A program made the position numbers and the translations under genes. 64,000 nt of DNA from a phage. How positions within the stretch are numbered: position 1 is the stretch's first letter; each line of letters starts with the position of its first letter. This document shows, piece by piece, positions 10,089 through 11,110 of the stretch. Location: the sequence record MZ956761.1; one strand, 5' to 3'. The notes under the pieces are model-generated. The model saw only the letters and a program-made list of their open reading frames with translations. It did no database searches and had not been told where the DNA came from.

Positions 10089-10161
10089 TGGGAATTAGCC
10101 AAGTTGGTAAGGCATAGCACTTTGACTGCTAGATGCAAAGGTTCGAGTCCTTTATTCCCAG
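10089..10161 (+). tRNA. tRNA-Gln (UUG)
   Basis: Acceptor tgggaat/attccca, T-loop ttcgagt, anticodon loop cTTTGAc. Confidence 0.85.
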
Positions 10162-10162
10162 C

Positions 10163-10249
10163 GCGAGAATGGTCAAATTGGTAAAGGCACAGCACTTAAA
10201 ATGCTGCGGAATGATTTCCTTGTGGGTTCGAGTCCCACTTCTCGCACCA
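10163..10249 (+). tRNA. tRNA-Leu (UAA), type II, CCA encoded
   Basis: Acceptor gcgagaa/ttctcgc, anticodon loop cTTAAAa, long variable arm. Confidence 0.85.
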
Positions 10250-10254
10250 AATTT

Positions 10255-10328
10255 GCGGATATCGTATAATGGTATTACCTCAGACTTCCAATCTGATGAT
10301 GTGAGTTCGATTCTCATTATCCGCTCCA
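10255..10328 (+). tRNA. tRNA-Gly (UCC), CCA encoded
   Basis: Acceptor gcggata/tatccgc, anticodon loop cTTCCAa. Confidence 0.85.
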
Positions 10329-10338
10329 ATTTAATCTA

Positions 10339-10412
10339 CTCCGTGTAGCTCAGTTTGGTAGAGCGCCTGATTTGGGATCAGGAGGTCCAAGGTTCAAATC
10401 CTTGTATGGAGA
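10339..10412 (+). tRNA. tRNA-Pro (UGG)
   Basis: Acceptor ctccgtg/tatggag (two G-U), anticodon loop tTTGGGa. Confidence 0.8.
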
Positions 10413-10414
10413 CT

Positions 10415-10504
10415 GGAGGCGTGGCAGAGTGGTTTAATGCACCGGTCTTGAAAACCGGCAGTCGCTCCGGCGACTCATAGGTTCAAATCCTATCGCCTCC
10501 GCCA
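10415..10504 (+). tRNA. tRNA-Ser (UGA), type II, CCA encoded
   Basis: Acceptor ggaggcg/cgcctcc, anticodon loop cTTGAAa, long variable arm. Confidence 0.85.
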
Positions 10505-10509
10505 GTTTT

Positions 10510-10585
10510 GCTGATTTAGCTCAGTAGGTAGAGCAACTCACTTGTAATGAGAAGGTCGGCGGTTCGATTCCGTCAATCAGCACCA
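10510..10585 (+). tRNA. tRNA-Thr (UGU), CCA encoded
   Basis: Acceptor gctgatt/aatcagc, anticodon loop cTTGTAa. Confidence 0.85.
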
Positions 10586-10586
10586 A

Positions 10587-10661
10587 GGCCCTGTAGCTGG
10601 AAGGTTCAAGCAAGCGACTCATAATCGCCAGATGGTGGTTCAATTCCACCCAGGGCCACCA
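10587..10661 (+). tRNA. tRNA with CAU anticodon (Ile by analogy with T4; Met not excluded)
   Basis: Acceptor ggccctg/cagggcc, anticodon loop cTCATAa. Confidence 0.8.
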
Positions 10662-10674
10662 AATTAAGAATTAA

Positions 10675-10761
10675 GGGGAGTTATCCCGTAGAGGTAGCGG
10701 TGTGGACTGTAAATCCATTGTCATTGCGACTCGGGTGGTTCGACTCCATCACTCCCCACCA
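10675..10761 (+). tRNA. tRNA-Tyr (GUA), type II, CCA encoded
   Basis: Acceptor ggggagt/actcccc, anticodon loop cTGTAAa, variable arm resembling bacterial tRNA-Tyr. Confidence 0.75.
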
Positions 10762-10765
10762 ATTT

Positions 10766-10840
10766 GGATGTGTAGCTCAATGGCAGAGCGATCGCCTGTT
10801 AAGCGATTGGTTATAGGTTCGAATCCTATCACGTCCGCCA
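10766..10840 (+). tRNA. tRNA-Asn (GUU), CCA encoded
   Basis: Acceptor ggatgtg/cacgtcc, anticodon stem atcgc/gcgat, loop cTGTTAa. Confidence 0.8.
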
Positions 10841-10954
10841 AATTTGTGACAACTGTCACATTAATATCTACTTGACGCGATTATAGGGGTTGAACTGATC
10901 ACTCTTCTCTTAATTTCGTGTGAAGACATCTTGATTGTTGGAGTAGGTATTAAT
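10841..10954 (+). ncRNA. Inter-tRNA spacer, possible small stable RNA
   Basis: 114-nt segment between tRNA-Asn and tRNA-His with hairpin tgtgac-aact-gtcaca at 10845-10860; tRNA processing would release it. Confidence 0.25.
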
Positions 10955-11030
10955 GTGGCCGTAGTTCAGTTGGTAGAACTCGAGATTGTGATTCTCGTAG
11001 TCATGGGTTCGACTCCCATCGGTCACCCCA
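10955..11030 (+). tRNA. tRNA-His (GUG), CCA encoded
   Basis: Acceptor gtggccg/cggtcac, anticodon stem cgaga/tctcg, loop tTGTGAt. Confidence 0.8.
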
Positions 11031-11034
11031 ATTA

Positions 11035-11110
11035 CGGGGCATAGCTCAGAAGGAAGAGCAAGGACCTTCTAAGTCCTAGGTCGTAGGTTCGATCCCTACT
11101 GCCTCGACCA
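11035..11110 (+). tRNA. tRNA-Arg (UCU), CCA encoded
   Basis: Acceptor cggggca/tgcctcg, anticodon loop cTTCTAa. Confidence 0.85.

What the first reader, a model, noticed from the sequence alone, without database searches (positions are those of the whole stretch)
10089..11110. Eleven-tRNA array including Tyr, Asn and His
I could fold eleven cloverleaves by hand: Gln, Leu, Gly, Pro, Ser, Thr, CAU (Ile or Met), Tyr, Asn, His, Arg. From memory, the classical T4 set has eight (Gln, Leu, Gly, Pro, Ser, Thr, Ile, Arg), so Tyr, Asn and His would be extra here. Extra phage tRNAs can compensate codon usage or replace host tRNAs cleaved by anticodon nucleases.
Basis: partly seen in the sequence, partly recalled or inferred. 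Interest (0 to 1): 0.45.

Follow-up and report, generated by a model that had tools for sequence, protein, structure and literature searches.

The report
Common T-even phage eleven-tRNA array
The eleven tRNA genes are real, but the same array sits in about 190 sequenced T4-like phages and is already annotated, so it is ordinary; the only fresh item is a conserved, unannotated structured RNA in the "gap" before the histidine tRNA.

Summary
Observation confirmed. ARAGORN and Rfam each find eleven tRNAs at 10089-11110: Gln, Leu, Gly, Pro, Ser, Thr, CAU, Tyr, Asn, His, Arg.

The window is 100% identical to Escherichia phage ADUt (Tequatrovirus), whose record already lists these eleven. The Tyr-Asn-spacer-His block is near-identical in at least 187 deposited genomes.

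T4 does have eight tRNAs. The window combines three parts:
- a T4-identical Gln-to-Ser block, then a Thr that differs from T4's by 3 nt;
- a T2-type, segB-less block (CAU, Tyr, Asn, alternative Arg), described in 2008;
- a ~190-nt insertion carrying tRNA-His.

T-even and T5 tRNA-Tyr counter Septu and retron-Eco7, and PARIS cleaves host tRNA-Asn. Phage codon demand is higher than the host's for Tyr and Asn, but not for His.

Beyond the finding:
- The 114-bp "gap" holds a ~95-nt covarying structured RNA, found in 356 phage records and absent from Rfam. It resembles T5 stable RNAIII in position and topology.
- The tRNA-His has U, not G, at position -1.
- The CAU tRNA is Ile2-type.
- rnaD and rnaC homologues downstream are misannotated as proteins.

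The parts
10089..10162 (+). tRNA-Gln(UUG); no encoded CCA
   Evidence: identical to T4.
10163..10249 (+). tRNA-Leu(UAA)
   Evidence: identical to T4.
10255..10328 (+). tRNA-Gly(UCC)
   Evidence: identical to T4.
10339..10413 (+). tRNA-Pro(UGG); no encoded CCA
   Evidence: identical to T4.
10415..10504 (+). tRNA-Ser(UGA); has encoded CCA like T2, unlike T4
10510..10585 (+). tRNA-Thr(UGU); 3 nt different from T4. C40 of host thrU is G40 here.
10587..10661 (+). CAU-anticodon tRNA, Ile2 (lysidine) type rather than Met
   Evidence: The best E. coli match is the annotated tRNA-Ile(CAT), 81.6% over full length. The anticodon stem-loop AGCGACTCATAATCGCC is identical and C4-G69/C5-G68 are present. It is very different from the T4 tRNA-Ile sequence.
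10675..10761 (+). tRNA-Tyr(GUA), class II, A73
   Evidence: (30.2 bits). 1-2 nt from T2/T6 tRNA-Tyr; variable arm and T-arm identical to T5 tRNA-Tyr.
10766..10840 (+). tRNA-Asn(GUU), G73; carries the preferred SegB homing site described for T2L
   Evidence: Sequence identical to T2 tRNA-Asn. SegB site: PMC2330249.
10845..10860 (+). small hairpin UGUGAC-AACU-GUCACA
   Evidence: A similar hairpin precedes the element in STP4-a and in metagenome contig L024.
10861..10953 (+). Conserved structured spacer RNA. P1 is a 13-14 bp closing helix, P2 a long bulged hairpin, P3 a 4-bp hairpin.
   Evidence: MFE -32.7 kcal/mol, z -4.36. 32 pairs, 91.5% paired versus 34-50% in slid controls; 12 covarying pairs versus 0-3. 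356 phage records. No Rfam match.
10955..11030 (+). tRNA-His(GUG), C73, with U (not G) at position -1 (10954)
11035..11110 (+). tRNA-Arg(UCU), T2-type; sequence unrelated to the T4 tRNA-Arg
11127..11477 (+). 116-aa ORF of unknown function (phrog_3355), shared with T2 and absent from T4
11474..11593 (+). Homologue of T4 rnaD (species 2 stable RNA)
   Evidence: Alignment to the T4 annotation.
11600..11738 (+). Homologue of T4 rnaC (species 1 stable RNA), with a tRNA-like 3' part
   Evidence: Weak tRNA-Sec-like hit at 11645-11737.
11789..11812 (+). Intrinsic terminator (10-bp GC-rich stem plus T run) closing the unit
   Evidence: conserved with T4.

Best explanation
This is the ordinary tRNA operon of a Tequatrovirus (the window is phage ADUt), in a configuration shared by roughly 190 sequenced relatives.

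Inferred from T4: it is transcribed left to right as one precursor and cut up by host RNase P and 3'-processing enzymes. The unit holds 11 tRNAs, a structured spacer RNA, a small ORF and the stable RNAs rnaD and rnaC, and it ends at the terminator at 11789-11812.

The array is a mosaic:
- The Gln-to-Ser block is virtually identical to T4; the Thr that follows differs from T4's by 3 nt.
- The CAU-Tyr-Asn-Arg block is the segB-less allele known from T2/T2L.
- A ~190-nt module (hairpin, spacer RNA, tRNA-His) has been inserted between Asn and Arg.

The eight T4-type tRNAs read A-ending codons, which the AT-rich phage uses 1.4-3.9x more than E. coli does. Tyr and Asn serve higher codon demand. They also, most likely, replenish or replace host tRNAs destroyed by tRNA-cleaving defences: Septu and retron-Eco7 for Tyr, PARIS for Asn. 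Cassette content varies between phages because homing endonucleases such as SegB cut inside tRNA genes and drive allele replacement.
For: Shown here:
- 11 tRNAs found by two methods.
- 100% identity to ADUt, which has the same annotation. Same order in the independent isolate R5505.
- At least 187 records carry the Tyr-Asn-spacer-His block.
- Mosaic structure relative to T4 and T2.
- rnaD, rnaC and the terminator are conserved.
- Codon ratios.

From the literature:
- The T2L region encodes Met(CAU), Tyr, Asn and an isoacceptor Arg. The preferred SegB site lies in tRNA-Asn, and T4 x T2L crosses convert ~1250 bp of this region (PMC2330249).
- Septu cleaves host tRNA-Tyr. T6 tRNA-Tyr rescues infection. 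T4, which lacks it, is sensitive, and T2 is resistant (PMC13096335).
- AriB of PARIS cleaves tRNA-Lys, Thr(UGU) and Asn(GUU), and T5 versions of these tRNAs rescue (PMC12409363).

Sequence hints:
- The window's tRNA-Tyr is 1-2 nt from T2/T6 and shares the T5 variable arm.
- The window's tRNA-Asn has UAAGCG where the host has the AriB motif UAAUC|C.
Against: - No experiment exists on this phage.
- T6 tRNA-Tyr is itself cleaved by Septu and works by dosage. A single copy, as here, may give only partial protection.
- His codons are rarer in the phage than in the host (0.8x), and only minor AriB cleavage of tRNA-His is reported, so His has no demonstrated rationale.
- The tRNA-His lacks G-1, which should impair charging.
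- Lys codons are the most over-used (2x), yet no tRNA-Lys is encoded, so codon supply alone does not predict the set.
- The E. coli codon values were recalled from memory.
Confidence: 0.88

Rival explanations
1. Pure codon supply. Tyr, Asn and His are kept only to raise translation capacity for an AT-rich genome, with no role against host defences.
For: Tyr and Asn demand is 1.58x and 1.38x that of the host, and all eight T4-type codons are 1.4-3.9x enriched.
Against: His demand is below the host's (0.8x). Lys is the most enriched, but no tRNA-Lys is present. Direct experiments link T-even tRNA-Tyr to Septu escape. The phage Asn and Thr differ from host tRNAs exactly around the AriB cleavage site.
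Confidence: 0.25
2. Hitch-hiking cargo. The extra tRNAs are near-neutral passengers. Cassette exchange driven by homing endonucleases and recombination at tRNA 3' ends moves them in and out, so their presence reflects mobility rather than benefit.
For: Array content differs among T4, T2, T6, RB10 and the window. The SegB site lies in tRNA-Asn. The His module is bounded by CCAAAT and CCAATT tRNA ends. Homing nuclease genes sit beside the module in Nispero and ZX13.
Against: All the tRNAs keep intact cloverleaves and identity elements over hundreds of genomes and several genera. This indicates purifying selection. Function has been shown for Tyr.
Confidence: 0.2
3. tRNA-His is not a normal translational tRNA. 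Lacking G-1, it is poorly charged. It acts as a decoy or sponge for a nuclease that attacks GUN-anticodon tRNAs, or it is only the processing partner of the upstream spacer RNA.
For: U at -1 is conserved in four T4-like genera, in T5 and in a mycobacteriophage. Loss of G-1 lowers HisRS charging more than 100-fold (PMC5499578). His codon demand is low. Tyr, His and Asn are three of the four colicin E5 substrates (PMC1635277).
Against: The T5 record notes that its tRNA-His, with the anticodon changed, is an effective amber suppressor, so it can be charged and used. The full cloverleaf, GUG anticodon and C73 are conserved. No decoy activity is known.
Confidence: 0.15

Closest known systems
Identical arrays in deposited Tequatrovirus genomes (ADUt OQ466432, vB_EcoM_R5505 MK373786, slur03, HP3, ACG-C40 and others)
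   Same: Same 11 tRNAs, same order and same 114-bp gap, at 98-100% identity.
   Different: Nothing of substance. These records leave the spacer RNA unannotated. ADUt and R5505, the two records inspected, call small ORFs over rnaD and rnaC.
T2/T2L tRNA gene region, the segB-less allele (Brok-Volchanskaya et al. 2008, PMC2330249)
   Same: CAU tRNA, Tyr, Asn (identical sequence), T2-type Arg, the downstream 116-aa ORF, no segB, and Ser with encoded CCA.
   Different: The window keeps tRNA-Thr where T2 (AP018813) has an ORF. It also has the ~190-nt hairpin + spacer RNA + tRNA-His insertion between Asn and Arg.
Classical T4 tRNA cluster (8 tRNAs, segB, rnaD, rnaC)
   Same: Same genomic position: after 57B, ipI and trna.2-4, before e.8. 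The Gln-to-Ser block is virtually identical and Thr differs by 3 nt. rnaD, rnaC and the terminator are more than 95% identical.
   Different: No segB. The Ile(CAU) and Arg genes are different sequences. Tyr, Asn and His are extra, and an ORF separates Arg from rnaD.
T6 tRNA-rich region and its anti-Septu tRNA-Tyr (Chihara et al. 2026, PMC13096335); T5 tRNA-Tyr versus retron-Eco7 (PMC11555353)
   Same: The tRNA-Tyr is 85/87 identical to T6's and has the same variable arm as T5's.
   Different: T6 has segB next to Tyr and escapes by amplifying that unit. The window has no segB in the array, so that escape route is not available in cis.
T5 RNAIII ('stable RNA with unknown functions') immediately 5' of T5 tRNA-His
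   Same: About 100 nt, placed directly upstream of a U(-1) tRNA-His. Its 5' and 3' ends form a 13-14 bp closing helix, followed by a long hairpin and a short 4-bp hairpin.
   Different: No significant sequence or covariance-model similarity (9.5 bits, E 4.2). Homology is unproven.

Membership tests
tRNA (Rfam RF00005) | Cloverleaf scoring above the curated gathering threshold (29 bits) | tested here: met
   All 11 pass. Ten score 59-74 bits; Tyr scores 30.2.
T-even (Tequatrovirus) tRNA gene cluster | Position between the 57B/ipI/trna.2-4 genes and rnaD/rnaC/e.8, with a conserved Gln-Leu-Gly-Pro-Ser block | tested here: met
   Synteny and near-identity with T4 and T2.
T2L-type segB-less allele | No segB; CAU tRNA, Tyr, Asn and isoacceptor Arg; SegB target in tRNA-Asn | tested here: met
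   No ORF lies between CAU and Arg. tRNA-Asn is identical to T2's. The description comes from PMC2330249. Cleavage by SegB itself cannot be tested here.
tRNA-Ile2 (lysidine-modified CAU tRNA) versus elongator tRNA-Met | C4-G69 and C5-G68 acceptor pairs plus an Ile2-type anticodon stem-loop (TilS determinants, recalled from Ikeuchi et al. 2005) | tested here: met
   Both pairs are present. The stem-loop is identical to an E. coli tRNA-Ile(CAT), which is the best host match.
tRNA-Ile2 (lysidine-modified CAU tRNA) versus elongator tRNA-Met | Lysidine at C34 and charging with Ile | not testable with these tools
   Requires tRNA mass spectrometry or charging assays.
Bacterial-type tRNA-His | Genome-encoded G-1 pairing with C73 | tested here: not met
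   Position -1 is T in the window and in 3 other T4-like genera. E. coli has G. C73 and the GUG anticodon are present.
Anti-defence phage tRNA-Tyr (Septu / retron-Eco7 counter-measure) | Sequence membership in the T6/T2/T5 tRNA-Tyr family | tested here: met
   85-86 of 87 nt identical to T6 and T2. The variable arm and T-arm are identical to T5.
Anti-defence phage tRNA-Tyr (Septu / retron-Eco7 counter-measure) | Rescue of infection in defence-carrying hosts | not testable with these tools
   Shown for T6 and T5 only.
T5 RNAIII-like stable RNA | Position directly 5' of tRNA-His and an end-to-end closing helix with two internal hairpins | tested here: met
T5 RNAIII-like stable RNA | Detectable sequence or covariance homology | tested here: not met
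   Model R1 gives 9.5 bits, E 4.2, at the RNAIII locus.
T5 RNAIII-like stable RNA | Accumulation as a stable RNA in infected cells | not testable with these tools
   Needs northern blotting or small-RNA sequencing.

The most novel reading that the evidence does not exclude
The 114-bp 'gap' encodes a previously undescribed family of stable structured RNA, about 95 nt long. It lives inside phage tRNA arrays of Straboviridae and Vequintavirinae and may be the T4-like counterpart of T5 RNAIII. tRNA-processing enzymes would excise it. It may be functionally coupled to an atypical U(-1), G(-1)-less tRNA-His. For example, its closing helix ends at position -2 and could fix the RNase P cut so that the tRNA keeps an extra 5' nucleotide. 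Alternatively, the RNA has its own anti-defence or regulatory role.
Probability: 0.35. Interest if true: 0.55.

Novelty: already known. Interest (0 to 1): 0.25.

Why it matters
The tRNA array adds nothing new. It is a textbook-type locus, already annotated and common, and the likely roles of its "extra" tRNAs have recently been demonstrated in sister phages. Its value is as a clean example of how T-even tRNA arrays are built from exchangeable cassettes.

Two by-products could matter:
- A covarying ncRNA is hidden in an unannotated spacer of hundreds of phage genomes.
- Phage tRNA-His genes from three unrelated lineages break the bacterial G-1 rule. This bears on how tRNA-His identity and RNase P site selection work during infection.

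Tried and rejected
- **Promoter in the gap:** the sigma-70 scan finds none on the + strand there, and the TTGACG hexamer is not conserved in Nispero. Rejected.
- **Degenerate tRNA or known ribozyme/sRNA in the gap:** a permissive Rfam search (E up to 10) gives nothing between 10841 and 10954. A hammerhead-like CUGAUCA motif was considered, but no model supports it.
- **Homology of the spacer RNA to T5 RNAIII:** the covariance model, run with filters off, gives only 9.5 bits. I kept this as an analogy only.
- **Spacer RNA obligatorily tied to tRNA-His:** rejected. It persists without His in STP4-a, in metagenome contig L024 and in A7_1.
- **More divergent copies:** pattern scans of IMG/VR (4 loci) and metagenomes (12 loci, 5 true) added little diversity.
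- **Literature on G-1-less phage tRNA-His or T5 RNAIII:** nothing found.
- **Technical limit:** Python could not see most fetched loci, so comparisons used the alignment tools.
- **No host match:** blastn of the phage Tyr and Asn genes against E. coli chromosomes found no host tRNA-Tyr or tRNA-Asn. The host genes were fetched by coordinates instead.

Full report
**1. Observation**

ARAGORN predicts exactly eleven tRNA genes in the 64-kb window. All lie on the + strand between 10089 and 10162 (first gene) and 11035 and 11110 (last gene). The order is Gln(UUG), Leu(UAA), Gly(UCC), Pro(UGG), Ser(UGA), Thr(UGU), CAU, Tyr(GUA), Asn(GUU), His(GUG), Arg(UCU). All fold into canonical cloverleaves.

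Rfam's tRNA model hits the same eleven places above its gathering score. Ten score 59-74 bits. tRNA-Tyr scores only 30.2 bits against a threshold of 29. The weak Tyr score is not a false positive. The gene differs by one nucleotide from T2 tRNA-Tyr and by two from T6 tRNA-Tyr. The T6 tRNA has been detected and shown to function (PMC13096335).

**2. Identity of the locus and how common it is**

Window 10000-11200 is 100% identical to Escherichia phage ADUt (OQ466432, Tequatrovirus). It is 97.6-98.8% identical, over its full length, to every other isolate among the 40 best records listed.

- The ADUt record already annotates the same eleven tRNAs. So does the independent German isolate vB_EcoM_R5505.
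- A query limited to Tyr-Asn-gap-His (10662-11034) is at least 80% covered in 187 phage records. Other phages, such as RB10 and GiZh, carry Tyr and Asn without His.

**3. Anatomy relative to the classical T-evens**

T4 has Gln-Leu-Gly-Pro-Ser-Thr-Ile-segB-Arg-rnaD-rnaC, so "eight in T4" is right. The window compares as follows:

- The Gln-to-Ser block is virtually identical to T4. Thr differs by 3 nt.
- From the CAU tRNA onward the sequence is unrelated to T4's Ile, segB and Arg. It matches T2 instead: Met(CAU)-Tyr-Asn-Arg followed by the same 116-aa ORF.
- This segB-less allele was described for T2L, RB1 and RB3 in 2008. The preferred SegB homing site lies in tRNA-Asn, and T4 x T2L co-infection converts ~1250 bp of the region to the T4 type (PMC2330249). 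The window's tRNA-Asn is identical to T2's.
- Relative to T2, where Asn abuts Arg, the window has a ~190-nt insertion. It consists of a small hairpin, a ~95-nt spacer and tRNA-His, and it is bounded by tRNA 3' ends (CCAAAT... and ...CCAATT).
- Downstream of the ORF lie clear homologues of T4 rnaD (about 11474-11593) and rnaC (about 11600-11738), then the conserved intrinsic terminator at 11789-11812. ADUt and R5505 annotate two small "hypothetical proteins" over these RNAs. These are almost certainly misannotations.

**4. Identity of individual tRNAs**

*CAU tRNA.* Software calls it Met, and so do the T2L and T6 papers. It is best read as an Ile2-type (lysidine) tRNA:
- Its best E. coli match over full length is an annotated tRNA-Ile(CAT).
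- It shares the whole anticodon stem-loop with that tRNA, plus the C4-G69 and C5-G68 pairs. That these pairs are TilS determinants is recalled knowledge.
- It occupies the position of T4 tRNA-Ile.
- AUA codons are twice as frequent as in the host.

*Tyr and Asn.* Tyr has A73 and a long variable arm. Asn has G73.

*His.* It has C73 and the GUG anticodon, but T rather than G at position -1. E. coli has G there. U-1 is conserved in Jiaodavirus, Karamvirus and Winklervirus homologues, in T5 and in a mycobacteriophage. In bacteria, G-1:C73 directs RNase P to cut at -2/-1, and its loss lowers HisRS charging more than 100-fold (PMC5499578). This remains unexplained.

**5. Function**

*Shown for sister phages.*
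- Septu (PtuAB) and retron-Eco7 cleave the variable loop of host tRNA-Tyr.
- T6 tRNA-Tyr rescues infection when over-expressed or amplified. T4, which lacks tRNA-Tyr, is Septu-sensitive, and T2 is resistant. The phage tRNA is itself cleaved, so dosage matters.
- PARIS/AriB cleaves tRNA-Lys, Thr(UGU) and, secondarily, Asn(GUU), with minor cleavage of His. T5 versions of these tRNAs rescue infection.
- Colicin E5 cleaves exactly Tyr, His, Asn and Asp.

*Shown here.*
- The window's tRNA-Asn reads U36-A-A-G-C-G where host asnT has the AriB motif U36-A-A-U-C|C.
- Its tRNA-Thr has G40 where host thrU has C40, at the cleavage site.
- Its tRNA-Tyr shares the T5 variable arm.

*Codon demand in 77 window ORFs versus E. 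coli* (host values recalled from memory): Tyr 1.58x, Asn 1.38x, His 0.80x. The eight T4-type A-ending codons are 1.4-3.9x. Lys is 2x, yet no tRNA-Lys is encoded.

*Inference.* The array supplies codon demand. For Tyr, and probably Asn, it also buffers tRNA-targeting immunity. His has no demonstrated rationale. Cassette turnover is driven by homing endonucleases and by recombination at tRNA ends.

**6. The "gap" is a structured RNA (beyond the finding)**

- Window 10841-10954 folds with z = -4.36. It forms a small hairpin plus a ~95-nt element, which has a 13-14 bp helix joining its two ends (P1), a long bulged hairpin (P2) and a 4-bp hairpin (P3). The 3' strand of P1 ends at position -2 or -1 of tRNA-His.
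- The element occurs in 356 phage records and carries no feature of its own in the sampled records (the few annotated features under the match are neighbouring tRNA-Gln genes or 'hypothetical protein' ORFs). The taxa are Tequatrovirus, Jiaodavirus, Karamvirus, Winklervirus, Gelderlandvirus and one member of the Vequintavirinae.
- In A7_1 (Vequintavirinae) the P1 sequence is entirely different but still pairs.
- On nine distinct sequences, 91.5% of cells pair, against 34-50% when partners are slid. Twelve of 32 pairs show double changes, against 0-3 in the slid controls. No shuffle out of 500 reaches these values. Caveat: the second alignment is fitted to the model.
- A covariance model finds one copy per phage, on the tRNA strand only (81-114 bits, against 17-23 bits on the other strand). 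It finds none in T4, T2 or T6.
- No Rfam family matches, even at E up to 10.
- The element persists where tRNA-His is absent: STP4-a, metagenome contig L024 and A7_1. It is therefore not merely a His leader.

T5 offers a striking parallel. Its annotated "RNAIII, stable RNA with unknown functions" (106 nt) lies immediately 5' of a U-1 tRNA-His and folds into the same topology. Sequence-level homology is not detectable.

My best guess is that this is a stable RNA released from the tRNA precursor, of the same kind as T4 rnaC/rnaD and the T5 stable RNAs. A possible role in positioning the RNase P cut is speculative.

**7. Verdict**

- The array is already known and common, so interest is low.
- The by-products are modestly interesting leads that I followed only in part: the covarying spacer RNA, the U-1 tRNA-His, the Ile2 identity of the CAU tRNA, and the misannotated rnaC and rnaD.

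Noticed in passing
window 10861-10953 (with hairpin 10845-10860): The unannotated 114-bp gap between tRNA-Asn and tRNA-His holds a conserved, covarying ~95-nt structured RNA. It is present in 356 phage records across six T4-like or rV5-like groups and is absent from Rfam. It is analogous in position and topology to T5 stable RNAIII.
   Followed up: partly
window 10954 (position -1 of tRNA-His 10955-11030): The tRNA-His has U instead of the bacterial genome-encoded G-1, while C73 is retained. The same holds in Jiaodavirus, Karamvirus and Winklervirus homologues, in T5 and in mycobacteriophage Daffodil. The consequences for RNase P cleavage and HisRS charging are unexplained.
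   Followed up: partly
window 11474-11593 and 11600-11738: Clear homologues of the T4 stable RNAs rnaD and rnaC. The GenBank records for ADUt and R5505 instead annotate small 'hypothetical proteins' over them (window 11533-11682 and 11688-11849), which are probably spurious.
   Followed up: yes
window 10587-10661: The CAU-anticodon tRNA, called Met by software and in the T2L/T6 papers, has the acceptor pairs and the exact anticodon stem-loop of E. coli tRNA-Ile(CAT). It is most likely a lysidine-dependent AUA reader.
   Followed up: partly
window 10766-10840 and 10510-10585: Phage tRNA-Asn (U36-A-A-G-C-G) and tRNA-Thr (G40) differ from host asnT and thrU exactly at the published PARIS/AriB motif and cleavage site. 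This hints at nuclease-resistant variants.
   Followed up: partly
window 10675-10761; L017 2921-3471: The phage-type tRNA-Tyr has no blastn-level match to chromosomal E. coli tRNA-Tyr. It is 94% identical to a tRNA-Tyr on plasmids in 269 E. coli genomes. The 72-kb linear plasmid record inspected carries it in an Asn-Tyr-Thr-Ser array and looks like a phage-plasmid. Related copies occur in rV5-like, FelixO1-like and T5-like phages.
   Followed up: partly
window 10841-11034 versus T2 (L019 ~3447-3452): The hairpin + spacer RNA + tRNA-His module is a ~190-nt insertion relative to T2. It is bounded by tRNA 3' ends (CCAAAT and CCAATT), which suggests recombination or endonuclease action at CCA-proximal sites.
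   Followed up: partly
window 7949-9046: Just upstream of the array lie a 57B homologue, annotated in ADUt as the anti-CBASS protein Acb1, and two internal (core) protein genes. Together with the tRNAs, this looks like an anti-defence neighbourhood.
   Followed up: no
window 11127-11477 and 11863-12336: Two ORFs absent from T4 at these positions (116 aa, phrog_3355; 157 aa, phrog_2280) have no Pfam match and no known function. The 116-aa ORF is shared with T2 and separates tRNA-Arg from rnaD.
   Followed up: partly
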